Positions 20,901-61,091 of a stretch of 64,000 nucleotides of DNA are shown in pieces (position 1 is the first letter of the stretch; every line of letters starts with the position of its first letter). The position numbers and the translations under genes were made by a program. Origin of the DNA: Amphiscolops sp. MND2022 (lineage: Eukaryota); assembly GCA_964187785.1 (NCBI GenBank), contig CAXLNC010001375.1, positions 1 through 64,000 on the forward strand, read 5' to 3'. The notes beneath the pieces are model-generated. The model had not been told where the DNA came from. It was given only the letters and a program-made list of their open reading frames with translations, and ran no database searches.

Positions 20901-21099
20901 GTGCCGGAGGAGCCATTGCCAGGTTGTTGCGAGAATGGAAGACGAGAAGTCAGAGGCAAATCCCACTGAAACGAGGTGGCTGATGTAGAAGCAGACTGTG
21001 CTTAGGCATACTGGGTAAAATCTTGATAGAATGAAGTTGTAGTTGTGGGATTAAGCCAAGGAGGTAAATGAGGGGCCGGAAGGAGAGAAGTTTCTAAAA

Positions 21100-23088: not shown

Positions 23089-23749
23089 ATTGAAGACAAT
23101 AATACTATAAAATTACAGTAGCGAGTGGCTTTATCAGAGGTTTTTGGTGGAGGTGTTAAAATTCGAACTTTACTGGTTGGAGTATTTGGTCGATGAATGT
23201 GGATTTCAATTAGTGGACTTATTGCGAGAGAGGAAGGAGCTCAATTTTAATAATTTTGCATTAGGAGAACAGTCTGCGCAAGCGAAGTGAAAAGTCACAA
23301 TGACTTGGTTTAAAAGAATGGCGGATTAGAGGGGTTAATTTGTTTTGCAATACACTTTGACAGGAGTGGTATATAAAGAAAAATCATGTGAGTTTGGATT
23401 AACAGTTGTATAACGAGATTATGTAGAATTTCGTAATGGTGAAGTATTGCTGATGGCGTTGTTATTTTTAGTTTGTTGATTAAAGGACTTTTTTTGTTTT
23501 GGTAAGAACCTAAGGCGTGTCATATTTGGAATTCGTTTTGGTATAGAAAAGTGCGTGTTACATAGTTCCAGAAGGTAAAGCAGACGAATGTGTTGGATCG
23601 TGTGAATTATCAGAAGATTCACCTAATGGGTGTTCATTTAAAGTTGACAGGGGAAATTTTTGAGATTTTTTAATGGGCGGAAATGGTTTTTGAGTATGAG
23701 CACCATTAAGGTTATTAGGCGTTTCAGATGTAAGAATATTGAAAACCAT

Positions 23750-26113
23750 GTGCGATAGAAATAATGATAGTAATATTCTGTAAAAACATTTTTTCAAGAA
23801 ACTGTTTTCTATAAAGTTTGATACGAAGTGTCAAGATCGTATGTATGAAGAAAAGAATGTTGAAAATTAAATTCCACAAGGTGTGAGGATGTAACACGAA
23901 TATCCAAATAATGAAATAAAAGCAGCAAAGAACAATGTCGGTGTAAAATGGGAGTTAAATTAGGACGTTTAATATGCAGTCCAATACGTAATGTAATATG
24001 AGGATTATGATTATCGTCGATAGAAAAAGTATCATTAATTGGGGTATTAGAAGAAATAAAATATTAGCTGAGAGTTTTTCCTAGGCGTTGTAATGTAGTA
24101 TCAGAATGTTTTGAAAAAAATTTCCTTCCCAAAACTTATCAAGTTCGGCATTAGAATATATACCAGCATCTTGAGCTGTGAATGTATTAGGTCGTTTTGT
24201 AGTTTTAATTTGGGATGGTGTAAACATAAGTGATGGTTTTTGTTTTATTGGCTCAGGTCTAAGAATGTAAACGTCTTGGTCCACCGAATCGGGATCGAGT
24301 TCAAAAATGTTTCGTGGAATATTATCACATGTTTTAGGCGTGGCTTAATCATAAGTACGTCTTGAGATCAACGTACAAAAAAGTATCTTTGAAATGTATT
24401 GGAATACGATCGAAACAACAATCAGCTTCGTTTCAACGGTGAAAGTGAATGGGAGAAGCATAAAGCCATGCAGTGGAACATTTACCTTAAAGGAAATTAC
24501 TTCGGTTTCCTGTTAGAAAGAATCCAGCAAATTGAGGATTCTGTATTGACATTGCATGTATTCTAAGTAACTGCTTTCTTTCTAATTCATATACAGAATT
24601 AGGAGAGTTTACTTCTGGTACTGTGATGGAGCGAGAAACATCTGTTTAATATATTTTTGTTATCTGTTTAATATATTTTTGTATAAAATATGCAACAGAG
24701 TTACTCATAGCATTGTCAATCGAAACATTGAGTGCGGGGAAAACATCTTTAATATTGTTCTTGAACTATTTTTCCTAAGTTTTTTCATTGATTGCACAGT
24801 GAGAGTTTGGTTGTCATGTATGCATGTCAAAACCATTAGTGTATGTAATATAAAACCTGAATATTGTGTTGCATAAAAAGGTTCTGGTTTGTGACAAAAT
24901 GTGTGAGCATATGGAAAGACTTCGAAACGTGAAAGACTAGCATTGTGTGGGTTTTGTGCAAGTGGAGCATGAACATATGGGCAAGAGGTTTCTTTAGTAA
25001 CACTTGTGGTGTCATATTTGTTGGGAATGAGAGAGTGTACGAAAGTATCTGAACTCGAAAATGAGACAAAAGTAATCATTAAACCAAATTAAAGTATAGG
25101 GTTATTTTGTGGTCGGTTTGCAGAAACTATCAGCAAAGTAACAAGGTAATGTAAGACCATCAATAACCATAACGTTTTCAGTGTCATCATATGTAAGTTC
25201 TATTTCGGCAACTGAAAATCGCCAACTGACTATGTTAGGTTCAAATTGGTGTTCAGCTGGGCAGTTATGGAGAGGGGTTCGTTTTGGATCATCAAGCAAA
25301 GTTTTATCTGCAGGCATCAATGTAAAAGTACCAGTGTACATTTCGTTAAACTGATAGACAGTAAAAAAAAGATTGAAATTGTTCTAGTTTTTCTTGAAAC
25401 TAATGAACTTCGGCAAAAGTGATAAAATTGTTATAATTTCGGTTGTTCAATCTTTTATTATTAGTACCATTGAGATGTCTAATTAGGTTTTTATAATCCA
25501 GAGGATCAAGATTATCAAAAAGTGGCATTGTGTTATGCTTCCAAACAGTTCTATCAACGCGTCTATACTTAAGAGAGCCTTGAAAACAAATTTTTCTTTT
25601 TTTCTTGGCATATGCTTCACATTTGAAAACTTTACCAAATTTTGCTTCTGCGCAAAAATAGACCAGTGCTTTAACATTAGCGTGTTGTATATTAGATAGA
25701 GCTTCAGTGCATTGAGTCACATTCAAGTTAAAATGACGAAAGTTATCTTGTTTTTCACAGTCATAATGGGAATCCTTGAGGTTTGTAATATTTGGGTCAT
25801 CAGACGGAAGAAAATTAACTGTATCAGTTAGTTCAATAGGAATAGTGTAATATGTAAAAGCAGGAACTAGAGTATAATATTTGCTACGTAAAGAAGTTTT
25901 TTCGTAATGAAAGGTTGTAGTATATTTAGGTCCTGAATAGGGATTGTAAAATACCATTTTGCCATAAGCCAAATCAAGAAGTTGAGGATCACGATTGAAA
26001 TCTATACACGTGGCTTCAAATGGATCTGGAGTTGTCGTGTGTTCCATTTTAGCGACGTGAAATATCGGATGAGGGTTTAGGCCTTGGAAACTTATCTTTA
26101 ATTCACACTTCAA
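23750..26113 (-). pseudogene. env: Copy B env with N-terminal leader in frame
   Basis: ORF 25400..26113 reads LNPHP...FYNPYSG...hydrophobic stretch...SHYDCEKQ...FKCEA; further ORFs give TLPCYFADSFCKPTT, TFCHKPEP, QDAGIYSNAELDKFW. Confidence 0.88.
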
Positions 26114-26923
26114 TTCTCAATTAGTGTTTTGTAGTATTATAAGTTCTGTTTCATTTCTTGTGTTTGGTAAAGAATCGTTAGTTGCAATGAAATTTTCTGT
26201 AAGAATAGATGATCGTCTTTTGGGTAGTAGATACTTACAACGTCAACACGTATATGATAGACTGCAAGTTTAGGAGTAGAACGTTAGGAATATTCAGTTG
26301 TAAAACATTCATGTTGTCCCACGTGTGCAGGAACCGGAGTAAGAATAAGAACTTCAGAAAAGAGATTTCCTGAAAGATATGCAGTTTTTACGTCAGACGA
26401 ATGTAATGAAGCGGTGTTGACACTTGATCTAAAATATGCTTGTTGAACAAGGTCCGAAGAATGTGTATCGGAGGATAGTGGTTGAGCATGTTGCGTTGCG
26501 AGACGTAATGTTACTCGAAAGAGTGGAAAAATTGGGTGTTGAAGTGTCAGTACTAAGTCTTTGTGAAGTAATGAAAAGTGAACTGGTAGAGTGTTGAGAT
26601 CGTCGAAGATATTCTGAAGATTTGTTTAAAAAAATTGGATAGTGAAGTGGATTGTTTTCGAATAGGTTTGAGAGGTGGCTAGGTTTTTGAAGTATTAGAA
26701 GAGTTCTTCTCTGAAGGTAGGTGTAATGAGGGAAGCGGAGAGTATTCCGTACCAGGCATATCTACAATATTTAGTTGAGGTTGAAGACGACCTAAATTTA
26801 TAGCAGTGGGTTGTTTGTGGTTTACAAATCTTGAAACAGTTTCTGGATTGGTATGTGTACCAAAGGAGTATGAATTGGTGACATCACGATACGTTTGCCG
26901 CAAAAGTGGATTTTTTCATCAAG

Positions 26924-27210
26924 TGTACGATGTATTTTCCTTAAAAGGAGAGCGAACCGTATTCTAGTCAATTAATGCAATCAAACAAAGCAGTCTTCGC
27001 GAATTGTGATTCACAGTTGATCAGAATTTCGGTACACATCGTCAGGAAAATTAACACCAAACGATGCTTGACACAAACTACGTGTAACGTCAAATCACGG
27101 AGTGTAACAAGCAAAACTCGTAACGCGTATCTGGAATCAGAACGCGTTTTTCTTGGCTGTTAATCGAACTAGCAAGATCTTGCTAGTTCGTTGCGGAATA
27201 TGTATCGTAA
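26924..27210. mobile_element. ~290 bp solo-LTR- or MITE-like insertion in copy B
   Basis: CpG-rich island in G-poor context; imperfect inverted ends (TGTACGAT...ATCGTAA); hairpin 27122-27148 and perfect 26 bp palindrome 27165-27190. No TSD found. Confidence 0.4.
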
Positions 27211-27949
27211 TGGATGATTGAGATTGAGAACGGGAAGTAAAAGGTATTTCAAATATAGGTGGTCTACTAATTTGAGATACGGTTTTAGATACTGAAGAAG
27301 ATGTATCTGTAATATCTGTTGTTTGTCTTTTGAATGGAGTTACAGGAGCTACATTGTGAGTTTGAAATGTTATAACAGTTTGAGAGACTGAAGTAGAAGA
27401 TAGACTTGGATCAGAAGGAGATGTTTCAGAAAAAGGATCTAGAATGGTAGCTCAGTGAAGTCTTTTTTAGACTATTTTATAATTGTGGAGAGTGTTTTAC
27501 TTCAGTTGTTTCAATGTCACCAATTCCCACCGAGTTTTCAACGTTTTGAACGAGTTATGACAAGACGATTATCTTTTCTAGGTTGTTGTCTCAAGTTATA
27601 ATGAATTTCAACCATTCTTTCATTTGAAGATTGGTTTCGAGAAGGATCTGTTTGATGAGTTTTAAGAACTTGTTTCGGAAGATGAAATTTCATTTTGTAT
27701 TGAAGGTGAGTTGTCATTTGAAGAAGGATTAGAAGAAGTGTGATTTGATTTTGAAGAAGGTATTAAGGGTTTTTATAGGTAAAATTGTGGGAGATCGTCT
27801 TGTGATACTTGTTCATCAGGAAAAGATTCACCTGATTGAGACGGAGGTGAGTCGTTATTTGCATATTTATTTGATTTTGGAATGTCATATTGATTTGAGT
27901 TTAAAAAACGCATGTCGTTACGAAGGTGAGGGTACAAAAGAGTTTCTTT

Positions 27950-29060
27950 AGGATAATACGGTATCAAATGATTTCGAAGTGTATGAAAGGTAATACCATC
28001 TTGGGAACGAAGTTCATACGAGACATCAGAAAGTCTATCGAGTATTTTGTAAGGTCCAATCCGAAGTGGTTTTAGTTTGTCTGGAAAATGAACGTGTGAA
28101 AATTAACGTTTTAAAACAAAAGTTCAAATAGAGAGAGGTTTTTCTTCATGATAAGTTTTTGTAATGTAGGCTTCAGATTGATTTTACGAATAGTGCATTC
28201 TTATACTGTAGATAGGTTTGTAACATAGCAGTTTCTACTGCGAGGAACTATTGAGGAAGAGGTTTAGAAAGTGTACGATAAAGGAATGGATTAAGATCTG
28301 TCTTGCTTCAATGTGAATGTTCTGGAAGTCAGATCAATATGTTGAAATACATGTTTTGTGTAAACCTCGATTGAGTTTTAAGACAAATTTGAGTGGAATT
28401 CGAGGACGTCGTGAATTATGAGCGTAGGCATGCATGTGGACTTGTAGAGACCAATCTTTTGAAGCATTTTGAAGTACCATCCGAAGAAGTGTACCAAGAT
28501 ATTTGTTTTTACCTTCAACGAGTCCATTTGTCCAAGGGGAGTAAGGAGTCCTATGAGAGAGGCCGATACCCATAAGAGTACTTAGTTGTGAAATATCAGT
28601 AATAATATATTCTGATCCACGATCAGTGACAAGGTATATAGGTGGACGAACCTTCATAACCCAATGGTGAAGAAGTGATTTTACAGCAGTTTTAGCGTTA
28701 TTGGATTTGATAGGAACAGTGACAGCAGAGTGGATAAAAGCGTCGACAATGATATGTATGTATGATTTGTTCTGTGAAGGAGGATCGATGGGACCTTTGT
28801 GTCCACTGAAAATCGGTAATTGAAGGAAGGAGCATGATCAGAGAAAGATTGTATTGGAGCGGTTTGAACCTTTTGATTAAAATGTTTGTTACGTTGACAT
28901 TCGAGACAGTCATGTATTAAATGGAAAGCCATGGTTTAAGAAAAGGAATGTATTAGTACTGTGAAATGGTGTTGTAATCAATTTTGAGACCTGTGCGACA
29001 ATGGTCATGAAGTTTTTTGAAAGTCGTGCTGAAGAGACGAAGTGGCAGACAAATTTTGAA
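27950..29060 (-). pseudogene. pol: Copy B integrase
   Basis: LHDHCRTG/HDCLEC zinc finger, SVDTKGP, VDAF, VTDRGSEY, WTNGLVE, RIGPYKIL. Confidence 0.9.
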
Positions 29061-29829
29061 GGTGGTTTCAAGAATGTTAGTATTCAGGTCTGAGAGTGTT
29101 TTAGAAAAGTCTTTACTTTTCGTATAAAGGCTGATAAGATTGGTAGACTCATCTGTAAAGAGATTTGAAAAGATTTTATAGTCATCATGTGAAAATGGAC
29201 AACCAGAAAATCGAGGTGTTAAAAATCTGGTTTCGTGTTTTGAGAAAACCGGTAAAATACAGTTTTGAGTACTGGATCTTGGAACTGTTGTTGTTTGAGT
29301 GTTTGAGTATTTATCAGGCAAGAAAAGCCTTGAAAATAATCTTTGTATTTGAAGAATGAAGGGTCATAAAATGGGTTTATTTGTGAACAATGTCAAGAAA
29401 GTTTGATAGAAAGTTCTATAGCATTAGTAGAAAATGAATACTTCAAGCATATGTGATAGTAAAAACGTTTGCGTCTAAAAGAAAACTGTCGGGTGTGAAG
29501 GGTGTTGTTTCTTCCGGAATTTTTGTATAGGTATGATTTTCATCATCACTAATGACAATGACATCAGTATCTTTAGGTAAATGTGATTGTTGATGAGATT
29601 TAATATTTTTTTCATAGGAAATTTGATTTTTGTCTGAAAAGGTGTAATGGATATGAAAAGAAACGAGTCAAGAGGTTTGACATTGATAGCGTTACCTTTG
29701 CCATTTTTTCCGGATGATAACTTGGTCTGTGTCATATTCTAGGGTGAGAATCCTGTTTTTGATGAGGTAGGACTTCGTGTATAATTAAGTAATGGACAAG
29801 TTCAAGTGTGTTGTCTTGTAAGATTGCGA

Positions 29830-31150
29830 AGTCAATTTGTGGAGGATGTTGTTTATGTTCAAGTTAAATAATTTGTAAATTTGTAGTTCAGTTTTAGTAA
29901 AAGCAAGACTGAGCATGTCAGCGACAGAAACATTTCTCTCAGGTGTATGAATGATTTTGAATTTGAAAAATTTTGTTAATTACATATCAGCACGATAAAG
30001 TCGTGGACTAAGATTGTATTTTTCGTTAAAAAAATGTAAACGAGGTCTATGATCTGTGAAAATATGGATTGGATGTGAAGATCCAATAATGAGAAATGCA
30101 TCATAAATTTGTAGTGCGTGTACATTACCAAGAAGTTCACGGTCAAAAATAGTAATTTTTGTTCTTGTGGGGGAAAGATTTTTGAATTGTAAGAAAAGAC
30201 TTTCATTTTATTTTCTTCATTAAAATGGAATAGGACTGCGCCTAATCCAATCAAAAAAACGTCAACTGAAATAAAAGTGGATGTTTTGATTAGGTATTGT
30301 AAGTTCAGTATCGGATGTGAGAGAAGATTTTAATTTTTGAAACAAAAATTCGTGTTCAATTCTATGGGGTGTTTTTGAGTGAGAGATCATAAAATGGTGT
30401 AAAATTAACATGCAGTTTTTCAAAAAAGTTTTTTTAAACCTAAAAAAACCTATTAAATAGTGCACCTATTAAACTTATAAGAGCAACTTTACTAGTGGGA
30501 GAAGGAAGTTTATGAATAGGAGCAATTTTTGAATGAATGGGTTTTGAAGTATTGTAGCCAATTTCATGTCCACGAATTTTGACTGTTAGTAACATAAAGA
30601 AATATTTTTCAGGAGCAACTTTTTTACTAATTATGTGAAATTGTTCAATAAGTTGAAACATGTGTTCTTTAGAGTTAAAAAAGAGTAAGCCATCATCAAT
30701 GTATAGACGGGAGAAACCTAGATCAATAGGAGTTTTGAAGAATGATGACACGTGTTTAGTGAAGAAATTAGTGAGGCTTCGAGACCATAAAAACGTCTAA
30801 TTGAAGCAAGAAACTCATCACCTGATGAAAAAATTAGTGAGTTTTATTGTTTATTCGTCAGGGGATGTGTAAGCAAAGGCGAACATGATGTCAATTGCAG
30901 ATTTATACTTTTTATTTGCGCGGGCAAGTTGGGGAGCAAGAGGCCATGATTCATCAGATTGATCTGTGTTAGAGTTAAAGTGTCTAATACACAATTAATA
31001 GAGTCTCCTTTGGGGATGATAGTAAAAACATTTAGATAGGTAGTACCATATGCAAGTTTATCATATGGAAAAGAACCACTTTATTTGTGTCACAAATTGG
31101 GCATTTGGTGTAAGTCCAATACGGAAAGGAGTGGAAATCTTTCCAACATC
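29830..31150 (-). pseudogene. pol: Copy B RT and RNase H
   Basis: NDVGKISTPFRI, WPLAPQLARANKKYKSAID, LYIDD, GHEIG, IGLGAVLFH..YNS, VADMLS. Confidence 0.9.
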
Positions 31151-32023
31151 GTTTTAATGAGTAGCAAAACATTTTTTATTGTTTTATCAATAAGTTACAA
31201 AGTGAAACATATTCAGTATCTGTGAGATCAGAAAATTGAAGGGTTAATTTGTTGATGAATTTGAGAAGGTCTTTAGTATAAGCAAGAGAAGAAAAAAGAC
31301 GAGGTCCAGTTGTATGAGAAGTTGGTTGAACATTGTAGAGAGAGGAGTTTGTAGTTTTTGTAATTGTTTCTGTCAAAAAAAATTGGTGTGACGAAATCAA
31401 AGGACGAGTAGGTGTTTCTTCAGTGAATTGTAGAGCATAAGTTGTTTGTGAAATAGGTTCAGTAAATTCTGGATGGTATATGAGCAACGTTACGTACCCA
31501 AGGGTAAATATCTTTAACTTGATAGTATCTAGGTTTATCATTTGTAATTGGATCTTTTGTATAGCCAAAGTGTCTTGTAAATAAAGTACCAATATGGTTG
31601 GTAGAGTTTTGTATGATTGTTGCACAAGTGTCAGATTTATCTTGGGTAAAGACTTCAATTTAGTAGAGAAATAGGTGTGCGGAATTGTAGAAAAAAAAGG
31701 TTATTGTTGTAGTTGTGAAGTGAAGATTATAGTTGTTTTTTCTTGGGACGTGTGCAATTTTAGAGAAGTTGTGTTTTAAACGTTTTTGTGTTCTAGAATT
31801 TTGTATGGGTAATCTTTAGATAGGATTGATGTGACTTTGGTATGGTTTGGCAGTACTTTTGATTGGTATTTAAATTGTAAAGTAATGTCTTGGATGTTAA
31901 TGTTTCGTATATATCCGAAAAAATGACGTATCAAATCTTTTGTATTTCATATAGGCTACTGCAGAAGAGGTAAAAATTGTCAAGAATTGTCGGTTATTTG
32001 CTGAAAAACACAATTCCGACCAA

Positions 32024-36460: not shown

Positions 36461-37228
36461 TGGTATTTATAAACAGAAAGCATCATTTGAATCTAATTCG
36501 TTGGACTAATCTTTTGATCGAAACGAGTTTTATTGACAGTGTCACCGTAGGATTTAGCATCGGTAAATACACCGTATCACTCTAAATCTCCCTGCACTCA
36601 CAAACAGTTCAGTTTCTCGCAAATCGAGTCAAAACGCTCAATCACTTTCCTCTGATACACAATCTTCCGAATTAGCTTCACGCTCTTAATTTAAGTCCGG
36701 CATAGACACTGCTTCTTTATTACCTTCTGCTGTACAAACTGCTTACCTCTCTGGTAACATTTTCTCAGACGTTCTATCACCTACTCCAGTAGCACCTACA
36801 GTACACCTACCTACTTCACTGCAGAAAACGCTAGGCCTCCTACTCCTAACTTTGCTGACTACCCATTACGTGTTGACGGAATCACGATATACGAACCTCA
36901 ATCTGATCTTCGTTTCACAGACCGTTTCATTATTAACAACAATACAATGTCTGCCAACGTAAAGATCTCAAGTTCAAGAAACTTCAAAATCCTAATTGAG
37001 AACTAATGTTTGAAGTAAAGGTTAGATTCCAAGGATTATATCCCCATCCAGTATTTCAAGTTGCTAAATTAGAACATAAAACTACATGTGCTCATTTTCT
37101 CGTTACATATTTGACTTCAATAGAGTCCCTACTCTTCCAGACTTAACTTAAGACAAAATTATGTTTTATAATCCATACTCAGGCCACAAAAATACTACAT
37201 CCTTACAAAATACACATTTTCACATCCG

Positions 37229-39440
37229 ATGTACCAATTATATTTTACACCCCTCTCTGTAACACCTTTTTATTTACTTTCATACTTAATACCTATTGAA
37301 CTAACAGATGCAGACACTTATCTTACTCTAGATGACCCTAACAAAACGAACCTCAAAGTTTCCCACTACGATTGTGGAAAACAACAAAATTTGAGACAAT
37401 TCGCTTTATTGAACGTCAAACAATGTACTGAAATTCCTTCAAACACACAATACGCCAAAGTCAAAGCCCGAATCTACGTTCCAGTTGAAGCTAAACGCGT
37501 TAAAGCTTTTGAATGTGAAGCTTACGCAAAGAAAGAACGTAATATATGTTTCCAAGGCTGAGTCCAAAATAGCCGTGTTGACAGAACGGTTTGAAATCAT
37601 AACACACTACCTCGTCTTATAACGTTTGACCTCAATAACACAAACAACAAAATAACGAACAACTTCAATTACAGTCATACTTCTACACTTTCAGAAGATC
37701 AATACTTTCAAGAAACAACTTGAACAGTTTCAAACCCCTTTTACAGTTTGGAACTTGAAAACAATGCATACTGGTACTTTTACCTATATACAAGCAGATA
37801 AAGAATGGATTTATGATCCCCTAAAAACCCTTTACACAACTGTCCAGCACATCACCAATTTGAAGTAAATCTACTTAGTTGGAGACTCTCCGTCTCTGTA
37901 GTAGAAGTATCTTGTGATGATACAGAACACATCATGGTAATAGATGGACATACTCTACCATGTAATTTGCAGAGGGTTTCTGCAACCCCACTACCGAAAC
38001 TCATTTTACACTTGTATGGTTTAGTGATGTTTTTGTTTAATTTTTACACTATTTTCAGACTTCGTTGGTAGAATGACAAACATCGATGAAGGTATTGGTT
38101 TGAAACTGATTCTTTAATGCACCCTTCATTTCCAATTAAATCTGATTCCTCTTAGAATTTTAAGGCACTTCATATTCATACATCCATGAACTACACATAA
38201 AAATCACTTAACACTATCCTCTTACATTTTGAACTTTTGCCACATACTCAAACATTCTGTGGCGAACCCGAACCTCTCTACTCTGCACAATATTCCGATC
38301 TTTTTGTTACATACCAAGAATGTTTCAAAAAGCAAACAGGACAACCAAATCCTCAATCTATGGTAAGCGAATATAACTCAGGGAAAACAATATTATAAAC
38401 TAAATCACAACCTTTTGTTTTTGCAGCAATAAATGTAACTAACAACTTTGCTACCATCGACTTGACTATGATGCACATATAGATACTAAAATAAATTATA
38501 AAAATAACCATGTATTTCGTTCCATGACTGTACAAGAGCTTAATACTCTTCATACCATATGTGAATTAGAACGCACCAAACGCCTTGAAGTACTTGCTAT
38601 GCCTGTTCAAAACACTCAACTCACTGGATATCTTCCAACTGGAAGTCGAAGTAACTTCCTTTATGTCGAAATTTCTACGGCTTGCTTATAAGCCTGTCCT
38701 CATATTTTATCACTATTGTATGAAACTGACCGTTGCTTCGACAAAATACCTATCTATTACAAAGATACTCTTATGTATGTGGACCCTATTAAAAGACAAA
38801 TTTATCATTATGCTACTCCTATACCTGGTGGCAACAATCCACGCAATATAATAGAGCTTAATCCTGATGCTGGCGATCAAGACTTCTATTTTATTTGTGA
38901 ACCTATAAAACGAAAACCCCTCGTATGTTTACTCCTTCTCGAACAAAAAATACTAAACGCCCAAAGAACACATTTACAGCTCGCATATAAGATGCTGGCA
39001 TATATTCTAATGCAGAACACAATCAATTTTGAAACAAAATACTTTTTTCAAAACATTCTGATACAACACTTCATTTAATCGGAACAACTCTTGGTTGTTC
39101 ATTCATTTCTGTTAATACTGCAGACTACTCTGATGCACACATTTTTCAGACTAACCCCTATAATACACTTCCTATTGGACTACACGATAAACTCATTATC
39201 CTCACTCCAGTTGTTACACCAACATGATTTGCTGATGCTTTCATTACACTGTTTGGCTGTCCATGTTACATACTTACACATGGTGGAAGATGTTTTCTAC
39301 AATTCTTTTCATACAAGCACTTTCAATACTTCTTATCAAAGTTTACAAAAACTTTATCAAAGATATTCTTCAATCAACAAAACATTACCATTTTCAGTTC
39401 TATTGCAATTGGTTTTTTTTTCAAAATTGTTATAGCAGAA
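37229..39440 (+). pseudogene. env: Copy C env (class III fusogen-like)
   Basis: VSHYDCGKQQNLRQFALLNVKQC...AFECEAYAKK; TFCGEPEPLYS; CELERT; CFDKIPIYYKDTLMYVDP; hydrophobic C-terminal segment. Confidence 0.88.
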
Positions 39441-40231
39441 ATGGTCAATGAACTAAAAGACGCTCCTTCTGAAACACGATCATTAGGTTTTAATTACTTA
39501 AACAAAACTTCTTCCGAATTCTCTCTGTCAACCATTACTGAACACCCATTAGACCAATCTTCCATTACTTCAGATTACCCATCAGACGATCTAACTTCAT
39601 CCCCAACTCAGAGTTACGATCCTCATGATTCAAATGGGATTACATCTCTACCACCATTTTACACTAAACGACCTATACGTAAACTGTCTAAAATTTCACG
39701 ACCCAATTTTTTTTCCTAAACAAAAGTCCTATAATACTATCACTATTCACACCTCAAAACCATTAACATCCTTTAGGTCACCACCTCCTTTACCCCATTA
39801 CTCAAGCAACATTCGAAAACCTGACACCTATCCATTCAACTCTACTGCACTTGATAACCATGACACGGACACTCCAGTCAAATTATTTTCAAAAACCAAT
39901 TATTCATTTCCACCATCATTTTAACATCGCTCATTCAGCACTTTCCTTCACGTAGTAACAGTCAACTACCACTTCTCTCTATCTTAACATTTTGAACGTT
40001 GACAAAAATCTACCTCTCTGAAACACAACTAATTCTACAAAACTGATTCTCAAATTGTACCTCTCTGAAACACCAATAAATTTAAAAAAACACAAATCAA
40101 CCTATAAAATTGACTCTCAAATTGAAATCTAGGTTACGCGCTCTAACCAACCCACCGTCAAAATCAGAATTATATCTCAATCTCTTCCTACAAAACACGA
40201 TGAAGCCACTCGTTAGTAATTTCAAAATATT

Positions 40232-41900
40232 ATGACGCAAGCACACTTTGATCTTCAATCACAACTCGACTCTCAGTACATTTCAAATATCTCGGATGCA
40301 TCAACTACACCATTATGTAATAATTCACGAATTCTCTTTGTCAGCCCTATTGAACTTACCGTAATCGAACGACTGGAAACTACTAACGCCACCTCTGAAT
40401 CTCGTGATAAAAGTGATGTTACAGTTAAAACTTTTGATAAACATGATGATACACCTCTTAAAACTTTTGAATCTTTCGACACCTCCACCATCTTATATTG
40501 AAAGACCCCGCCTTTCTCACGTCTCCAATCGATCCACCAATAATTTCTCCAAACGAATCTTTTTCAACTGGACGAGATGACCATCTCACACCACTCCCTT
40601 CACTTGATAAGCTCACTTTCAAATCACATCTCACTTCATTGTATATTCATCCTACTGATTAGACATTCAGACCTACTGAAATAAAGCAAGATTTTTTCAC
40701 ATCCTTTGCCACAAAAAGAATGACTCCATATCATTATTGGCTTGAGACCAATGTCAATAGCTTTTCACTTCAATTCAATTTTCTCACACTATTCATATAT
40801 GATGTCAAAACTGATGAGAATGATTTTTCTTTTCTCGCAACTTCTCAAAAGGCACACCGCCTTTTTCTCAATCACAAAAAACCTCTGAACAATCTTTTCA
40901 TCAATTACAAATATACATCACTGTACACCATGAACAACTTTTACACTATTGACCAATCATCGTTCCACAAGAATATCTGATACGTTTTGACGACTTTCTT
41001 CTACCTTGCAACGTACCTAGGATCATTGCAAAACCTTTACCTGTCATTATGCACCTTGTTTCTGCTCCTCCTAATGACAACGAAAAGTCGTTTTGTACAG
41101 CTTTGTCAAAACAAGCATACTCCTACTATGAACTCTTGTTTATTTCTGCTGAAGACATTGCCTATGGTGAAACCCGAAGCTGCCAGAGCTGAAGGGAAAT
41201 CTAACAAAAATTCTGAACACTACACTTCAAAACAAACACCAATCACCACTACTGACAAACTCATCAATGTTCTCAATTCATGAACTCTTCGTAATATCAC
41301 TCATAAGCTACACCGATCCAAAAGAAATCCAACCGATTCTTCGCTCTCAACTCTTACACACATACTTGAATGTTACGATCACACATTCAAGTTGTTACAA
41401 TTTTTAGATATTGACTCTCAAAGAAGCACACAATCATCTGAAGCAATTCAAGCAACACTTGAAAACTTGAGCGTAGTTTTCAACTCTCGTAATTCTCTAT
41501 AAACTTCTCAGGTTGACCCATTTTTTTCTGTTTTCTTCTGGTACGCTCCTACTCATTTCACAGGTAACGCTCCATTTTGAACACTTTTTGTATTGTACCT
41601 CTTCTAAAATGTTGATACAAAATAAGAACTTTTAAACTACACTGTTGTTGCAAATTGGCACTTTGAATTATGCCTCTCTAACACTTGATTTCTTTCCTTT
41701 GGCAACAGATACTTTTGTAGCTCTTTGAAACTTCTTCTTATAGACATTTGGCCCTTCAATTTTGCCAATTTTTTCTGGTCAATCTTACTTTTAGGAAACT
41801 TCAAAATATGCGACACTGTAGCATCCAATCTATAGAACAAAATAGCACCAAATTTCCTGAACGATTTAGCACCATAGTTGTATTTCGATTGCACAGTTAT
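40232..41900 (+). pseudogene. Copy C ORF-X remnant
   Basis: MTQAHFDLQSQ..TPLCNNS (40232), MTPYHYWLET (40720), LPCNVPRIIAKPLPVIMHLVS (~41005-41065), TLRNITHKL (~41285). Confidence 0.65.
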
Positions 41901-42847
41901 TCATCAATTACATTGTTCCAGAAACTTCTATTCTGCCCACCCCCGTCCTTGCACTGCAGTTCATGGTCTTGGCCGCTGGACGTTTCAGCAAAACAATGAT
42001 TCAAACTGTTTCGAAAACTCAATTTCGAAACATTTCGTTTGAAAATGAGATGTAGACCTATTATTCGTATAACAGATATAAACCTGATATTTGTATACTC
42101 AATAAGCTGTAGCCTAATATTCGCTTAAAATTGTAATCTATAGTTTCCTTTACCCTCTTAATATGATCTTTTCTCATGTTATAATGCTCTCAATACACTA
42201 TATTACAACTCTTTTACCAAGACCTTATTTCCCATCTTTTTCTTACAGTACAAGCTTTATGTTTCTGGAACAAAATGATACATTCTTATAGTTTGAAACA
42301 CTTTTTCAACGTCTTTCGAATTCGTTTTTTTGAGCTGAATGGCTTCTTTCACTTTTGTTCACTACCCGCCAATGTTGGGTCATGTCTCATTGAAAACTCC
42401 AATTGCACACAAAAAGCTTTTAGCCTTCAAAAAGGTTGTTAATGTCACACAATATTCGCTGATCTATTAAGAAATTTTTCTTTTTGGGCAGATGAAGGAA
42501 CATTAAATCGAATTTGAATCTAAATACATATTATATGTTGTCAGAAAATAACTAGAACCAAACCGTCTGTCACAAATTATTTTCACTCTTGAAATGTTGC
42601 ACGTGAAGTGATCCGAACCATAAATAGGTAACTGAACCGCTTTAGGTAGCTCGCACTCCTTAAGTATAAAAGACATCTGAAAAATACATAACATCTTCCA
42701 TAATACCTGAACACAGCATGATACGAAACACCTCAGAACATAAACCTACTTCTCCAATGTGATGTTTTAAATTTTTTCAGAAGATTTTTTATTGAAATTG
42801 ACAACTTGACATATAACTTCTAGTCCAAAGAAGTTTATACAATCTAA

Positions 42848-50565: not shown

Positions 50566-51142
50566 ACACCTATAAACAGCACTTCTATAAATGGTCACCA
50601 ATAAACATGTCTACAATTACATTGGCATTGATCGCACTATGTACCGACCTACATTAATAACCAATAGTATTTCGATGTTCATAGAATATTCTAGAATGTA
50701 CATTTATTTAATATTGAATAACTGTAAAACTCTACTCCTTCAGAGAGAGAAAACTAATAATCAGTATTTGGTCGACTTCCTTTTTGATCTATCGTTCAGA
50801 CCTCCAGGCTTTAATAGAGTTAGCTAGCTAGCATCATCTTACTACCTTAGTTCAGTACTATCTAGATGAAGGTAGCCACCACCGAAAATACCTAATAGAA
50901 CTCTTTAAAGCAGCACAATTTGGTGCGACTTGTAAAACTTTTTTTCGCTGGATGCTTTCTCTTCTCTCATCAATACAAAACCTACTACTCCTCCTCCTCT
51001 TTGAAAATCTCTTGGATTGCAGTGAAAGTTTTCTGGAAATTCTAGAAAATCTTGTCTGTGACTTTCTGAATTTCTGTAACAAATACTTCATTGTTAGACA
51101 AAAAATTTCTGCATATCAAATATAAAAAACTTTTCCAATTCC

Positions 51143-51405
51143 GATTTATCACGTTTTTCTAAAAACGTTGACACGGTTCTTCTTCTATTCCTCTCACTTT
51201 GCCGCTTTATCACGTTTTCTAACACGTTGACACGGTACTTTTTCAGACTGTTTTATCCACAGTGACACAGTTCTGCTTTTCTCTCAGACTGCTTTATCCA
51301 TAGTGACACAGTTCTGTTTTCCATACTGATTTATCACAACTATCCGGAAGCTTGTTGAAACAATTCTGTCCGGTTTATCAAGGTTTTCTAACACCTTTGA
51401 CACGG
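51143..51405. repeat. Array of imperfect repeats TTTATC...(T)GACAC(A/G)G
   Basis: Six TTTATC cores, five paired with a downstream TGACAC. Confidence 0.75.
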
Positions 51406-52373
51406 CATTCAATTCTTCAATCCTGCTATCTTGAACGTCAGGTGGACTCCTGGTGTAATAGTTGACTTAGTGCATGTTAGACTCATTTCACCTATAAGCA
51501 CATACGTTACAAGATCAATTTCGCGTTGGCAGAAAACTTGGATTTTCTATTGTTTCGTTTTGGATCCATTTTCAATAAAAACTTCAAAAATTTACCTTCA
51601 GAATTAGATTCTGATATCCATAAAAGGTAACCAAGTTCTTCCCTACTTCTTCCTTATCATCTCTTTGACAACAAGTAGTTTTAACTATTTTACAATTTTA
51701 ACATAACTTCACAACATATTTCTTCTAACAAAACCTATCATACAATTTTAACATAACTTCTTGCTTAAAGTCTAAAATAGGACATGTAAATAAAACAGAC
51801 ACTGTAAAGGTAGTTTTATATTTTCAGGCACCCGCAATTCCTATCCTCTCCTGTTAGATTTAGACATTCAGATTACTCAGTTACAACTTGTGTAGTCTGA
51901 TTCTAAGACTGACTAAACACCTTAGTAGAGTTTAAACGTCCTTAAGGAGAATCTAGAGGACACCGAACTACGTTCGAATCTTCGAAATTCTCAGGAAGTA
52001 AAAGTAAAAGTAAAACATACAAAAGATCAAATTTTGATCTTGATCAGTATTGATCAGACTTTGGATAGTGGACGTTCATTGTTCCCTTAGTCTTAAAAAA
52101 CACAAACCACTTAAAAATTAATCTTTTTAGTTTCTCTGGACGTGTCAGTAACCATATGTTAGACACTTAATTGCAAGTCCAGCTCTAAAATACAACTCCC
52201 ACTGGATGTGTCAGTAACCTTATGTTAGACACCTCAATTTAATCCAGACCTAAACCTGAACTTAGATTCTGTTAGCAATCCTTTGAGGTTGAATACAGAT
52301 TCTATTGCATCCGCTTCATTCTTCTCTGTCATAAACAATTATAACAATTCAAACAATTTCTTCATATTACAAC

Positions 52374-55300
52374 AAAACATGAACACGAATACATATAATC
52401 CAACTTTTAACAATTCACCTCTTTCAAATTCCCCAATACTACCTTTTACACGTCTACTTTTACAACGATCAAGTCCAATCTAAAATCCTTCAAATCTAGA
52501 TTTTGAACGATTAAGTCAAAAATACGCACAATATTATTTCTACCTTTTAGAACAACAAATACAAAACAATTCAAAATCACCAACTTAAAGTATACAACAG
52601 AACACCATTAATTTTTTCAACACTTACTATCTTTAAACAACATAGTATGTGGGAAAAACTTACTACAAAAATCCTTATTACCACATATACATTTTCTGTT
52701 TTATTCCTATTTTGCATACTGTTGGAAAAGATACTTACAACAATATCTACACTCTAACATGAAAAATGTAATCTCAGAAGCACTCAAAATAATAACTCAT
52801 CTCTAATATGACATCTTCCATTTCTCTCCCTTCACCTTTTGAAATACCTTACATTAAAAATGCAAAATTAGTAAAACTCGAAATTAAACCATTCTTATAC
52901 AACATTGTGTACAATTATACTAGACCACTCTCATTTGAAAATGAACCTTATACTCTTGAAACAATCCCTTTTATTAGAGAACATTTGGATTCATATCTCT
53001 TCTATATTAGAAATAGATCTACAATTGCCTCTACGGAATACCCATCTTTTCAAATTACCTTTCCTCATCAAGAAACATCCTCAATTAGAACATATCCAAA
53101 AACAATTAATCCAATCAATCTCCAAATCCCTAATCGCTATTCGGGAAGTTTTCTATGCTTTCCTCAATAAAGTAAAAGAATTTAACATAACACTCGAAAA
53201 CAGAAAATTTAGTCCAAATGCACTTAAAAAACTTGAACAATATATACATAATTTCGAAGTAGAAGATCTAGAAAGACTAATTGTAACTCACAATAATCTT
53301 CATCATTGGTTACGAACAGATATAGTCCAAATACAAAATTTTCTATATCATTATTTCAAAAATATAACATTAAACGAACAGACAAAATCTCAAACTAAAT
53401 TGACATCCCTATTTTTTAGAAAATATTTCAGATTTAATTATCAACTATTATGGTCACTACAAGACCAACCTGCTTTCGCAGCATTCCATAATCATTTCAC
53501 AGCTGACGAATGTTTACCATTCATCATAAATGAACATATTGAATATCCTTACTTTGTAAAATTAGATACAATAACAAAACAAGCTATAGATTATATTTCC
53601 TTTAACCCTCGTTTAATCACAGAAAACAATCTTCACGATGACAATAGACCTTATCGCTATCAACAAAATTTCCAAGAATAACAAGATATAAATTTTAACA
53701 ATGACTATGATGAAAATGACACTAATAATGAAGAATTTACGCCTCAAAACCAAAATGAAGATGACATCAATAATGAAGAATATGTAAATGAAAATCAAAA
53801 TGGAAATCGTAATGAAGATAAAACACTCAATATAAATGAAAATAATGCAAGTGAATATACCACTCCAGAATCTACAACTTCGGCACAAAATACATCACAA
53901 ATTGAGACATCAACAAATACTCAATTCGTTAGAGTTCCAACTAGAATAGTTAGTCCAAGACAAAACACACAAGCTTCACAATCATATTCAGAAACACTTC
54001 CACATCGTAACATAACTTTTACCTTTCCACCAAGTCCAGAAGAAACAACACAAGATGGATCCCAAAATATTACTTCTAGTCGTGATATTTCTGTTAATGT
54101 TTTATCGCCCACAAGAAATATTCCTAATATTACACGAAATACAACTCGACCCATATACGATCCTCCATCAGTTCCTTCTGTCTTCAAATATTCTAATGAA
54201 ACAAGTCAACCAGAAAATCATTATAATAATAATTTACCAACTTCTAATCAATTTTATGATCCATTTAATTACTCCTTTTTTCCATCAGTTAATACAAATA
54301 CTCAAACTAATAATACTCAAAATGCATCCCATTCTAACTATAATATTAATTCAACAACACAACACCCATATCCACATTTATTACAACCTAACTCTTCAAA
54401 AGTAAATTGCCTTCACAAAATAAAAGAACATCGTACTCAAGTATTGTACAACCTTCTCATAGAAGATCTCAAAATCCTCCACTTTCACATATATCTACTT
54501 TCCCTCTATACCAAATGAATCAACAAACAACGTATAATCCTAATACTATTCCATCACCCGTAAACATGGAACAATCTGTAGTTCCTCAGCCTCAATACAT
54601 ACCAATACAACAAGATACATTTATCAACACATCAGCTTCAATACCAGAACCCATGAAACCTTTCGACGGTTTAGACCATTCGTATACTCCAGAAGAATAT
54701 TTACAACAAGTTGAAGCACGATTAACCTTCGCTATAGGTGAAGAACCTCTAAATAACCCTGTCAAATATAAATCATGGCATAATAGACGTATGGCATACA
54801 TACAATGTTCTTTAGTTGGAACAGCTGTTGATTGGTATACTACTCTTCACATCTCATATGAACAACAATGGAACTCGTTCGTACAACTATTTAAAAAACA
54901 ATTCTCATCTCAAAAGACCGCTTATTACGCACAAGTAGAAGCAATGTCACTCATGAAAAAAAAATAAAGAAACAGTACGCCATTTTGCCCTTAGAGTACA
55001 ACACTTAGTCAAAAAGGGATGGTGTAACGAAAATGCAGCTACTATAAATCTAAAAAATAAGGAAGTTTTTACAAAAGGACTACCCAAAAAACTAAAAGAT
55101 TTCGCTCACAAAAGACAAGTTAAACATATATCAACATAACTTGAACCATCAATACCGTTTCACACACTTTGTCAACATGTTGATTCTGAAGATATCGCTA
55201 ATGAAAAAATAGGAACAAATGATTTAGCTTTAGAAATAAACAAAGTATCTATTGAAGATAATATTAACTTCGAAGATAATAAAGACAATAGGAACCAAAA

Positions 55301-55950
55301 TTTGACCATATATTGGTTACTCAATCTGGAGACCCAAACAATAAAAGCAAACCAGCATATAAAAAATATTGTTCCTATTGTCACAAAAACAATCATGGTA
55401 TTTCCAACTGTTATCAAAAACAACGTGATGAAGAATATCAAAGATATAAAAATCAGAGATCAAGACTCCTCAACAGTCCTTTTTACAATATGTCCGCAGT
55501 AAACCTAGTAATTCACAAGAAAATCGAAATGAAAACAAAAATGATTATTTTTCTGGATAACGACCATACAAGATCTAACCAAAATACTACTCCTATTACA
55601 ACGACAGATATAGATATAAAGACAGATATAGAAGTAATAGTAGAGATTATTCACAAAATAATTACCGATCTAACTCTCGACAAAGATATTACAATAGATC
55701 TCTAAGTCCTTACTCATCTAGATCCAGATGTGACAATTATTATCAAAGAAGAAACCCATCTAGATCTCCATATAGATCTCCATATAGAAACAACTCTAAT
55801 CACAGATACAATTCGCGATCAAGATATAGATCTCGTTCTCAATCACAAGGAAACTCTTTTAGAAGATACAATTATCCGAACCGATTTCCATCTAGAGCAA
55901 GAGATTATAGATCAAGATCTAGAACACCTTCACAAAATAGACAACAAATC
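52374..55950 (+). pseudogene. gag: Copy D long gag: N-terminal domain, N/T/S/P-rich linker, capsid, CCHC knuckle, RS-rich tail
   Basis: ORF 52905..53681 continues in frame past one TAA; KPFDGLDHSYTPEEYLQQVEARL...WY...FKKQFS capsid (54640-55260); CSYCHKNNHGISNC (55370-55411); RS-rich 55621-55950. Confidence 0.85.
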
Positions 55951-56451
55951 AAAATAAATCAAGTAGATGTTATATCTACCAATGACAAAGATAGTACTAA
56001 ATTTGAAATTCATACATGCCAAATAACTGAGATTGCTAATACAATTACTCCTTATAGTTGGTTTTATCAACTATTTATACATGCCTCTGAAAGAAAAGAC
56101 AACATAGTACCTTCGAAACTAGAAATCTTATTTCTCTTAGATACTGGAGCTTCTATTTCAGTTTTGAATCTACCATCATTTCACGTTATTGCAAAACAAC
56201 TAAATCTCAACGTACCAAAAAATATTGAAAATAAAAGAACAAAAACTGTTACATTTGCTAATCAAACTGAAGTACCAATAATACATTACGTTTCAATGAC
56301 ATGTTTTACAGAAGTCAATCATCAAAATCGATCTTTCAATATCGAATTTGCAGTAGCAAATATTAAATACAACATTATTGGAGCACCTTTCTTCAAGAGA
56401 AGTATCCAAAATATAGATTTTCAACAAAATATTATGATTTACAAAAATTAA
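55951..56451 (+). pseudogene. pol: Copy D aspartic protease, in frame with the Gag C-terminus
   Basis: LFLLDTGASISVL (D codon at 56140) and NIIGAPF; frame open from 55621. Confidence 0.9.
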
Positions 56452-57149
56452 CATCCAAAACCTATAAAAACACACTTTTCAACATTTACTGAAAAAGATT
56501 ATCCTTATATTTCATACATCTATACTAATAAAAGTAAGGAACCAATCCAAAGACTATACACTTTCCAATTCCAAATTACCTTCACTTACACTTTGAACTA
56601 GAAGATAATACAAAATTTTATCAATCAAACACATATACATAATTTTCCCAAAAATTTGAAGATATCTTTCACTTTTTAGACATGATAATCAATGATAAAA
56701 ACAAAGACTCTTGTTCAACAATAATTCAAAACTTTACATCTCACCCAGCTACACTACCACGAGGAATTATTGGATATATAGAGATCCCTATTATTCAAAC
56801 AACACCTCCTCATTATAGAGTTCAAGATGTAAACTAACTTATTCATTCAGTAATACATACCTATCTTCCTGATACTACCATTCCAATTAAACAAAATGAC
56901 TATACAGATATGAACTTATGTACTCGAATAATTCCACAATCCTCAGTAGAAATATATAAAATAGTAATAAATGATAAAACAATTCAATTACCCATACCCT
57001 CTATCACAAGAAACCTCCGACCCTCAGATAAAATTAGAAAGGATTTTCCATCATTTTCATATACTACAGAAAATCAACAATTTATTAAAAAAAGTTCAAC
57101 TTTGAATATTCAGATCTTACTGATATTGAATATGTAATCCTTTGTAACA

Positions 57150-58138
57150 TCCTCATTAACAATCAACAATGTTACGCTAAACACAAAAATGACGTAGGAA
57201 AAATTTCTACTCCTTTCCGAATTAGAATTAAAGACAATTGTAAACTTCAAACACAAAGACCTTCTAAAGTACCGATTCATTATCGAGATAGATTAAACAA
57301 ACTCTTTGTAGAACTTGAAAAATACAATATAATTAAACAAATTGGCTCCACACCAGACGAAAAACACACTATTGGAACAACATTCTTGAATCCTCTAATC
57401 ATAATCCCTAAAGGAGACGCAATAAAAGTTGTTTTAGATGCCAGACATTTAACCTCAAATACTAATCAAGAATTTGAATCTTGGCCCATTGAACCTTTAG
57501 CTCCTCAATTGGCTAGAGCTAACACAAAATACAAATCGACTATAGATTTAATGTATGCATATGCTCATACTCCACTAGATGAAGAAACAATAAAACTTGA
57601 AGGATTTTCATCCGGAGACAATATGTATGCCTTTATCCGTGGATTCTATGGATTAAAAGGACTCCCAAATTTTTTCACAAAACAAATGTTAACCTTCTTC
57701 AGATCACTCATAGACAAACGTTCTGCACTAGTAAACATTGATGATATACTACTTTTAGCAGATGAGAAACATGAAATGATTGGACTTATCAAAGAACTCC
57801 ATAAAATAGCTACAAAAGATACTCTCAAACTTGCACCCGAAAAATCATTCTACAGGTTACTCAAAGTAAAATTCCTTGGACATGAGATAAGGAATAACAC
57901 AATAAAACCAATCCCATCAAAAATTGAAGCCTTTAAAAGAATCCCATCACCAAAAGAAAAGAAAGATGTTATGCAATTTTTAGGCAGTGTAAATTTTTTT
58001 TCAAAATTCGTTGAAAAATTACACATCAATCTAAATCCACTATACACCCTAATACATGATGATGTTAAATTTCAATGGACACCAGAATTAGAAAAAAATA
58101 TTTCAAGATGTTACAAACGCAATGACAGCAGAAACTGA
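57150..58138 (+). pseudogene. pol: Copy D reverse transcriptase
   Basis: NPLIIIPK..KVVLDAR, STIDL, GFYGLKGLP, NIDD (57734; YIDD/YVDD in B and A), KFLGHEI, FLGSVNF. Confidence 0.95.
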
Positions 58139-58139
58139 A

Positions 58140-58545
58140 TTGACCATACCCAACACAAAACATCCATTTTTTATAACAGTTGATGCGTCCTTAGTTGGTT
58201 TAGGCGCAGTCCTATTCCAAATGAATGAAGAAGATAAAATGAGAGTTATTACTTAGAATTCACGAAACCTTAATACACGGGAACAAAAACTTTCAACACT
58301 AGAGAGAGAACTCCTCGCAATAGTCTATGCATTACAAATACATGAATTTTTTATCATTGGATCTCCTCATCCAATATACATATTTACAGATCACAAACCT
58401 TTACTACACTGTTTTGCAAAAAAAGGAAACCTTAGTCCAAGATTTTATAGAGCACAAATGCAATTAACAAAATTCTCCAAACTAAAAATAAAAAATTATC
58501 CGTACTCCTGGAAAAAACTTAACTGTAGCAGACATGCTTTCAAGA
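58140..58545 (+). pseudogene. pol: Copy D RNase H (Ty3/gypsy type)
   Basis: TVDASLVGLGAVLFQ, ERELLAIV, FTDHKPL, VADM. Confidence 0.92.
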
Positions 58546-60816: not shown

Positions 60817-61091
60817 AATCCTGCTGAAAGAAAGTTGAAAAGGTCGAAGATAAAAGAAAGTTGAAGAATATTGGAAAAATAGAAATTCAAATAAAGAAAA
60901 GCAAAAATACAAAAAAAATATAAATTGAGACAAAACTTGAAATTCTAAAGAAATAACAATAATTATACTTCAAAATTGATAGCCATAGACCTTCACCCTC
61001 ATCAATAAGAAATAATTCGTCATCTAGTTCAACACATTCATTCCAAGTTTTACCTGAATATACTGCATTTTTAAACTCAGACACAGACATA

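What the first reader, a model, noticed from the sequence alone, without database searches (positions are those of the whole stretch)
40232..41900. Conserved orphan ORF-X downstream of env in three divergent copies
Seen: same start and blocks in C, B (23088-21100) and A (12815-8880): MT-Q-DL-Q...PL-N-S; PY-YWL; LPC/F-N/K-IP...K-L-V--HLVS; TLRDIT/TILDIC. Protein-level conservation persists although the DNA has diverged. I recognise no family. A 3' accessory gene in this position parallels foamy tas/bet or lentiviral nef by location only; function unknown.
Basis: partly seen in the sequence, partly recalled or inferred. Interest (0 to 1): 0.75.

Follow-up and report, generated by a model that had tools for sequence, protein, structure and literature searches.

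The report
Foamy-style accessory gene in gypsy retroelement
A large virus-like jumping gene carries, behind its envelope gene, a strongly conserved extra gene of no known family that likely has its own promoter and likely makes a nuclear regulator, as in foamy viruses; the three copies in this window are broken.

Summary
ORF-X is real. The three window copies are decayed relics of an ~18 kb Ty3/gypsy LTR element with a gB-type env. Three young families in the same genome (LTR pairs 98.9-100% identical) carry X intact as a 430-473 aa gene, in the order gag-pol, W, env, X, Y. Its core is under purifying selection as strong as pol's (dN/dS 0.02-0.07). No known family or fold was found; the best 150 of 549 profile hits among 1.84 billion proteins are all family members. 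New here: an initiator-like plus DPE-like motif pair at fixed spacing sits 220-370 nt before X in 24 of 41 distinct copies (shuffles 0.47), which points to an internal promoter at the env end, the foamy IP-tas layout. X has an acidic low-complexity N-terminus, a basic motif, an aromatic core and a C-terminal coiled coil, and no membrane segment. Best reading: nuclear trans-activator (0.4); function untested, no RNA data.

The parts
40232..41502 (+). ORF-X, copy C: decayed (frame changes and stops); intact relatives encode 430-473 aa
39931..39964 (+). Initiator-like hexamer (A +1 at 39933) and DPE-like pentamer at +28 to +32: predicted internal promoter for X
   Evidence: genome-wide spacing counts; consensus and spacing rule recalled
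40109..40216 (+). Short AUG-less frame U (26-37 codons in relatives) ending just before the X start; one stop in this copy
41512..41921 (+). Intron-like spacer: donor-like site about 10 nt after the X stop (degenerate in C), acceptor-like site at 41920-41921; gene Y not found behind it in C
37253..39921 (+). Decayed gB-type (Monjiviricetes fusion) env, copy C
36579..37202 (+). 3' remnant of ORF W, copy C
21379..23088 (-). ORF-X, copy B: decayed, with internal duplications
21094..21361 (-). Intron-like spacer of copy B (donor-like site at 21361, acceptor-like site at 21094)
20524..20865 (-). Decayed gene Y, copy B
23338..31922 (-). Decayed pol, W and env of copy B
11681..12800 (-). ORF-X, copy A (about residues 14-321), joined by a deletion to the 3' part of Y
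10013..10613 (-). Tandem duplicate of part of the X/Y region of copy A
13016..20468 (-). Decayed gag start, pol, W and env of copy A
50640..64000 (+). Copy D: LTR remnant, leader, decayed gag-pol, W and env; its X lies beyond the window

Best explanation
ORF-X is a conserved accessory gene of an envelope-bearing Ty3/gypsy element that is likely transcribed from its own internal promoter at the end of env and likely encodes a nuclear regulator that would switch on the element's other promoters, as foamy-virus Tas does. Shown: X is intact in three young ~18 kb families, sits between env and a second gene Y, and is under strong purifying selection; the window copies are broken relics. Inferred from sequence: an initiator-plus-DPE promoter 220-370 nt upstream gives a short RNA; ribosomes pass a weak non-AUG frame (U) and start at the X AUG; a small intron behind the X stop is spliced out. 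Inferred from protein anatomy: an acidic low-complexity N-terminus (activation-domain-like), a basic motif (nuclear import), an aromatic conserved core of about 260 aa (nucleic-acid binding) and a C-terminal coiled coil (oligomer). The confidence is for the whole mechanism; for the steps: real gene 0.97, own promoter 0.7, nuclear regulator of some kind 0.6.
For: Intact X: 88 of 90 scored hits for family F1 and 90 of 94 for F2 have no stop, 88 of 114 for the F3/D type by my count; these are the top-scoring hits of 7,469-8,678 candidates, so they are biased to intact copies. Same gene order in F1, F2, F3 with LTR pairs 98.9-100% identical. X follows env in 11 of 12 D-type loci. dN/dS of the X core 0.02 (F1/F1b) and 0.07 (F1/F2) against 0.07 and 0.09 for the pol C-terminal part. 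Among 30 F1 copies, shared variants are 33 synonymous to 6 non-synonymous. Promoter-like pair in 24 of 41 distinct copies, shuffles mean 0.47, maximum 3 in 500; the same pair lies 7 nt after the pol stop in F1, F1b and F2 and in the F2 LTR. Genome-wide the exact pair occurs 3,228 times at the 23-nt spacing against 1,106 and 1,553 one base shorter or longer, reversed controls 477-542. No AUG lies between the env stop and the X start in F1, F1b, F2. No hydrophobic segment (19-residue hydropathy at most 1.14), N-terminal 85 aa net charge -5 to -10. C-terminal helices are the only confident part of the model and match generic coiled coils. Foamy IP-Tas logic: PMC7390438, passages.
Against: No function was tested and there are no RNA data. 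The core has no confident model (mean pLDDT 47 and 53), so DNA binding is not shown. The one domain lead (PF21690/3H92) is under its cut-off, appears in 13 of 32 segments, and in none of 12 more divergent members. The basic motif is not a canonical NLS and one divergent member (P0292) lacks it. No shared motif was found between LTR and internal promoter regions. The 41 copies fall into a few lineages and are not independent; 17 of 41 lack the strict pair, among them F2 and F1b (looser match only) and window copies A and B. The motif pair also fits a branch point plus splice acceptor in lineages with AG at +28; F2 and F3 lack that AG. F3 has 5 AUGs between env stop and X. Genome-wide counts are inflated by repeats. 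Selection as strong as on pol suits a product that acts on its own element (RNA or particle) at least as well as a freely diffusing activator.
Confidence: 0.4

Rival explanations
1. X is a Rev/CERV-like factor that binds the element's RNA and exports the unspliced genome from the nucleus.
For: A donor/acceptor pair behind X is conserved in F1, F1b, F2 and the C type, so the full-length RNA would retain an intron. CERV is a 517 aa nuclear protein of a Ty3/gypsy element with a basic motif and a zipper (PMC10309623, passages). Aromatic-rich conserved core.
Against: X has its own AUG and no conserved cysteine cluster; a separate promoter-like site suits an early transcriptional regulator better; no similarity to any Pfam family.
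Confidence: 0.2
2. X counters host silencing or restriction (Bet/Vif-like), letting the element reach very high copy numbers.
For: Thousands of candidate copies in one genome; 3' accessory position; other gypsy families here reportedly carry accessory genes (unchecked notes).
Against: The core is almost frozen (dN/dS 0.02-0.07), unlike the fast change usual at host-conflict interfaces (general knowledge); no enzyme or known suppressor domain found.
Confidence: 0.17
3. X is a cytosolic structural protein (matrix or tegument-like) that links capsids to the tail of the gB-type envelope.
For: Follows env in 11 of 12 D-type loci and in all young families examined; coiled-coil tail; selection as strong as on pol and env.
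Against: No membrane anchor or MG start; acidic disordered N-terminus and basic motif; no match to viral structures (on a low-confidence model, so weak).
Confidence: 0.17
4. X is a captured host gene or non-coding passenger without a role for the element.
For: Origin unknown; 399 weaker hits were not listed, so a distant host relative is not excluded.
Against: Purifying selection across families 37-72% identical; 148 of 148 new representatives match the family and none of the 12 scanned carries a Pfam domain at E below 0.06.
Confidence: 0.04

Closest known systems
gB-type env-carrying Ty3/gypsy elements ('ancient errantiviruses'; Chary and Hayashi, PMC13524379: abstract, sections 5 part 1, 8, 14, term search, part 1 of 34 of supplement 1 plus a term search)
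   Same: LTR element with gag, PR-RT-RH-IN pol and a chuvirus-like/gB-type env; many near-identical copies.
   Different: That survey looked for gag, pol and env within 10 kb and with gaps up to 1 kb; 'downstream of env' and 'extra ORF' occur 0 times in its main text. Here about 1.2-1.6 kb with ORF W separates pol and env, and X and Y follow env; the 12-nt tRNA end that would match this primer site is not in its table.
Foamy virus internal promoter and Tas/Bet (PMC7390438, passages)
   Same: Accessory genes between env and the 3' LTR; a second promoter at the env end (predicted here); two genes and a splice.
   Different: Different virus family (RT closest to Ty3); no sequence similarity; the donor lies behind the X stop, so no Bet-like fusion is conserved; that paper calls the internal promoter unique to foamy viruses among retroviruses.
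CERV of C. elegans Cer1 (PMC10309623, passages)
   Same: Orphan 430-520 aa accessory protein of a Ty3/gypsy element with basic motif and helical zipper-like part.
   Different: CERV takes the env position, is spliced to gag exons and has a cysteine-rich loop; X coexists with a true env, has its own AUG and no conserved cysteines.
Oikopleura Tor3b/Tor4b elements (PMC4402516, passages)
   Same: Ty3/gypsy-like elements whose env RNA starts at an internal promoter after or in pol; the W/env promoter-like site here is placed alike.
   Different: No gene behind env is described in the passages read; here a second promoter-like site serves X.
Extra ORFs in LTR elements (PMC6431247 and PMC5408684, passages)
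   Same: Captured ORFs in place of, before or downstream of env are known in general; accessory ORFs enlarge fish foamy-like ERVs to 17 kb.
   Different: Those named are known enzymes or fusogens; X, W and Y match no family.

Membership tests
env-carrying Ty3/gypsy element (host element) | Paired LTRs with TG...CA ends and short target-site duplication | tested here: met
   8 young copies with LTR pairs 98.9-100% identical (a ninth, older locus gave no pair); 4-bp duplication read in 5 of 7 checked
env-carrying Ty3/gypsy element (host element) | pol order PR-RT-RH-IN with Ty3-like RT | tested here: met
   Pfam order in copy D; best PDB match Ty3 Gag-Pol E 5e-22, foamy Pol 7e-9
env-carrying Ty3/gypsy element (host element) | F- or gB-type envelope ORF | tested here: met
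   PF24664 at 75.6 bits, cut-off 27
env-carrying Ty3/gypsy element (host element) | tRNA primer-binding site behind the 5' LTR | tested here: inconclusive
   A TGG-starting site lies 2-3 nt behind the LTR in F1-F3; the tRNA was not identified
env-carrying Ty3/gypsy element (host element) | Placement in the published POL tree / GyDB profile class | not testable with these tools
   Profiles and sequences of the survey are not held
Foamy virus Tas/Bet | Encoded by a spumaretrovirus | tested here: not met
   RT closest to Ty3; gag and pol in one frame
Foamy virus Tas/Bet | Sequence similarity to Tas/Bel | tested here: not met
   No such Pfam hit at E up to 10 for three intact X proteins; that Pfam holds a foamy Bel model is recalled
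Foamy virus Tas/Bet | Expressed from an internal promoter at the env end | tested here: inconclusive
   Motif pair only; no transcript data
Foamy virus Tas/Bet | Binds LTR and internal promoter DNA and activates them | not testable with these tools
   Needs bench assays
CERV (Cer1) | Spliced to gag exons, in place of env, cysteine-rich loop | tested here: not met
   Own AUG, env present, no invariant cysteine
CERV (Cer1) | Exports unspliced genomic RNA | not testable with these tools
   Needs bench assays
Lentiviral Nef | N-terminal MG myristoylation start and overlap with the 3' LTR (recalled) | tested here: not met
   Starts MT/ML/ME; ends about 2 kb before the LTR
PF21690 (MJ1010-like C-terminal domain, PDB 3H92) | Score over the 27-bit cut-off | tested here: not met
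   Best 25.3 bits; 13 of 32 segments at E up to 1; 0 of 12 divergent members
PF21690 (MJ1010-like C-terminal domain, PDB 3H92) | Helix-turn-helix-like fold in that stretch | tested here: inconclusive
   Model pLDDT under 50 there; 3H92 lies among homeodomain/winged-helix folds per PMC3851181, one passage

The most novel reading that the evidence does not exclude
A Ty3/gypsy lineage has independently become a 'complex retrovirus': an 18 kb genome with at least five main genes and several small ones, three transcription units (LTR, W/env, X/Y) run by initiator-DPE promoters, non-AUG starts with leaky scanning, and its own trans-activator X of a new fold that drives a foamy-like feedback cascade.
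Probability: 0.3. Interest if true: 0.82.

Novelty: new variant of a known kind. Interest (0 to 1): 0.62.

Why it matters
Regulatory genes with their own promoter are regarded as a mark of complex vertebrate retroviruses, above all foamy viruses. An invertebrate-type Ty3/gypsy element with a gB-type envelope that has the same layout would show that this control scheme evolved twice, and it adds three unnamed, strongly conserved protein families (X, W, Y). The predicted start sites and splice sites are exact and can be tested with one RNA experiment. Surveys that look only for gag, pol and env within 10 kb would miss these genes.

Tried and rejected
Family searches without result: Pfam, PHROGs, NCBIfam, PDB sequences by profile (48, 69, 90, 91; only designed coiled coils, LSD1 tower helices and 3H92 at E 0.2-4), ESM Atlas (16 nothing; 61 best 0.82, chance level), longer fused forms (92: none of 5,479 candidates), viral and metagenome contigs (57, 58: none of 357 and 55 pattern matches confirmed). 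Fold searches on low-confidence models: BFVD (50) and PDB Foldseek no E below 0.001; VIA best Z 6.7, generic helices only (74); the core was barely tested, so this says nothing on whether its fold is new. A Tudor/SH3-like or winged-helix reading of residues ~250-300 (recalled patterns) was tested with a short profile and not supported beyond the weak PF21690 lead. Homodimer prediction: no answer. An X-Y read-through fusion after splicing was rejected: in frame in F1b, F2 and one F1 copy, but blocked by a stop in other F1 copies and out of frame in the C type. U as an env extension was rejected: its frame relative to env differs between F1 and F2. No shared LTR/internal-promoter motif (116). 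Literature: 9 searches; none returned a description of this family, but most subscription journals and Repbase are not covered, and only 1 of 34 parts of the survey's table was read (plus a term search); its other supplements were not opened. The host organism was not determined.

Full report
Observation. None is an open frame. With a natural intact relative as query, C matches at E 5e-89 over several frame segments, B in duplicated pieces and A over residues 14-321 only. Differences are concentrated on third codon positions in all three (only well-matching windows counted). In C the gene ends at 41502.

The element. Copy D shows gag, protease, RT, RNase H and integrase in that order, then an env. 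The RT region is closest to Ty3 (E 5e-22; foamy Pol 7e-9) and an intact env scores 75.6 bits on the Monjiviricetes fusion family. So this is an env-carrying Ty3/gypsy element of the gB type, a group surveyed by Chary and Hayashi (PMC13524379; abstract and sections 5 part 1, 8, 14 read). The genome is 1.07 Gb; the host was not determined.

Intact relatives. Searching the own genome gave three young families: F1 (X 473 aa; 88 of 90 scored hits without a stop), F2 (447 aa; 90 of 94) and F3 (430 aa; 88 of 114 for the F3/D type by my count). These are the best-scoring of 7,469-8,678 candidates and are biased to intact copies. Eight copies read in pieces measure 17.8-18.5 kb between LTR ends, with LTR pairs 98.9-100% identical, and the families share the order gag-pol, W, env, X, Y (single copies carry occasional breaks in other ORFs). 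X follows env in 11 of 12 D-type loci; the twelfth has another element inserted. X identities are F1/F2 69%, F1/F3 42%, in the same order as pol.

Selection. Between natural copies, dN/dS of the X core (residues 89-355) is 0.02 for F1/F1b and 0.07 for F1/F2, the C-terminal helices 0.02 and 0.12, the pol C-terminal part 0.07 and 0.09; dS is saturated against F3 (Nei-Gojobori). The N-terminal 88 residues and a linker vary. Among 30 F1 copies, shared variants are 33 synonymous to 6 non-synonymous, single ones 24 to 20. The constraint therefore acts on replicating lineages.

No known family. Pfam, NCBIfam, PHROGs, PDB sequences and the Atlas gave nothing usable. Two searches of 5.8 billion proteins returned 253 and 243 hits; the 120 listed in each are unnamed ENA proteins at 53% identity or more. 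A profile search of 1.84 billion representatives found 549 hits; the best 150 are family members, some only 31-42% identical, none named in the 6 clusters looked up; the other 399 were not listed. AlphaFold models are poor (mean pLDDT 47 and 53), confident only for the C-terminal helices, which match generic coiled coils. One lead, PF21690/3H92 over residues ~250-297, stays under its cut-off, shows in 13 of 32 segments and in 0 of 12 divergent members; I give it little weight.

Anatomy. X has no signal or membrane segment, an acidic N-terminus rich in P/S/T/Q, a basic motif at about residue 87, an aromatic-rich core with invariant blocks and no invariant cysteine, and a heptad-patterned tail. 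That is the build of a soluble, probably nuclear, regulator; this is inference.

Expression signals. A hexamer of the initiator type followed by a DPE-type element exactly at +28 lies 220-370 nt before the X start in 24 of 41 distinct copies, including window copy C (39931-39964); shuffles give 0.47 on average, at most 3 in 500. The copies belong to a few lineages, so the count overstates independence; F2 and F1b match only a looser form, and A and B lack it. The same pair lies 7 nt behind the pol stop in F1, F1b and F2, not in F3, and in the F2 LTR, not in those of F1 and F3. Genome-wide the exact pair peaks at this spacing (3,228 against 1,106 and 1,553), with many unrelated spacers, though repeats inflate all counts. 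The consensus and the +28 rule are recalled; PMC2377424 (two passages) only confirms that Drosophila retroelement internal promoters use these elements. A splice-acceptor reading is possible where AG stands at +28, but F2 and F3 lack it. Between this site and X there is no AUG in F1, F1b and F2 (5 in F3), but a short conserved frame U with a near-cognate start in good context (selected by its own motif, so partly circular). Ten to twelve bases behind the X stop a donor-like site is conserved, and an acceptor-like site about 100 nt before Y. No RNA data could test any of this.

Mechanism. The best-supported model: an internal promoter at the env end makes X early; X enters the nucleus, oligomerises and raises transcription from the LTR and the W/env promoter, as Tas does from the foamy internal promoter (PMC7390438, passages). 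The gene and its constraint are shown, the promoter is inferred from motifs, the activity from anatomy and layout only (0.4 overall). Rivals are a CERV/Rev-like RNA exporter (0.2; PMC10309623, passages), a counter-defence factor (0.17) and a matrix-like particle protein (0.17). Against the best model: no shared response motif, no structural support, and selection strong enough to suit a cis-acting product.

Novelty. Env-carrying gypsy elements, extra ORFs behind env in general (PMC6431247, passages) and an internal env promoter (PMC4402516, passages) are known. Nine literature searches returned no description of this protein family or of a gypsy element with this layout, within the limits of the library. 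I rate it a new variant of a known kind, interest 0.62. Earlier notes of the scan describe other accessory genes in gypsy elements of this genome (unchecked) and none for this sequence.

Noticed in passing
L062:3288-4547, L121:2785-4038, L172:2332-3798; window 60963-62400 (+), 25910-27448 (-): ORF W between pol and env: 418-489 codons with no in-frame ATG in three families and only 2-4 ATG in any frame (25-28 expected from the other ORFs, 11-16 from base content); CTG or ATT in strong context at its start; dN/dS 0.15 (F1/F2); no Pfam match. Suggests a non-AUG start and leaky scanning to env.
   Followed up: partly
L062:9283-9759, L121:8695-9144, L172:8613-9086; window 20524-20865 (-): Gene Y behind X, 150-160 aa, conserved in F1/F1b/F2 (62-82%); the F3 gene in this place is only about 22% identical and may be unrelated; no family match.
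   Followed up: partly
L061:4085-4204 and 4312-4548; L120:3448-3570; L171:3568-3681: Small hydrophobic ORFs upstream of gag (39-40 aa and about 78 aa in F1 and F2, 19 of 39 and 29 of 78 residues identical; 37 aa in F3). Position recalls the small ORFs of Drosophila MDG1-group elements (PMC11952523, passages), but they lack the MG start.
   Followed up: partly
L064:4131 onward: Gag has a ~640 aa N-terminal extension before the capsid-like domain; gag and pol form one frame of about 2,690 codons.
   Followed up: no
L129:3411-4405: A D-type env joined directly to the middle of an F1/F2-type X: a recombinant between distant families.
   Followed up: no
window 20468-20524: The end of copy B (gene Y) runs straight into the gag start of copy A with no LTR or leader found between them.
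   Followed up: no
window 1353-9242: A 3.9 kb tandem duplication, 93.6% identical, which includes a piece similar to the element's 3' untranslated region.
   Followed up: no
window 32000-36500: A strongly T-rich stretch with gag/integrase-like fragments of another element on the minus strand lies between copies B and C.
   Followed up: no
window 42343-42402 and 9219-9294; L063:3340-3420: A ~60 nt non-coding block in the 3' untranslated region is about 80% conserved across F1, F1b, F2 and copies A and C; a candidate cis element, for example a target of X.
   Followed up: no
G000 genome-wide: The initiator-plus-DPE pair is 2-3 times more frequent at the canonical spacing than one base off, with many unrelated spacers, hinting that this host uses DPE promoters widely.
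   Followed up: partly
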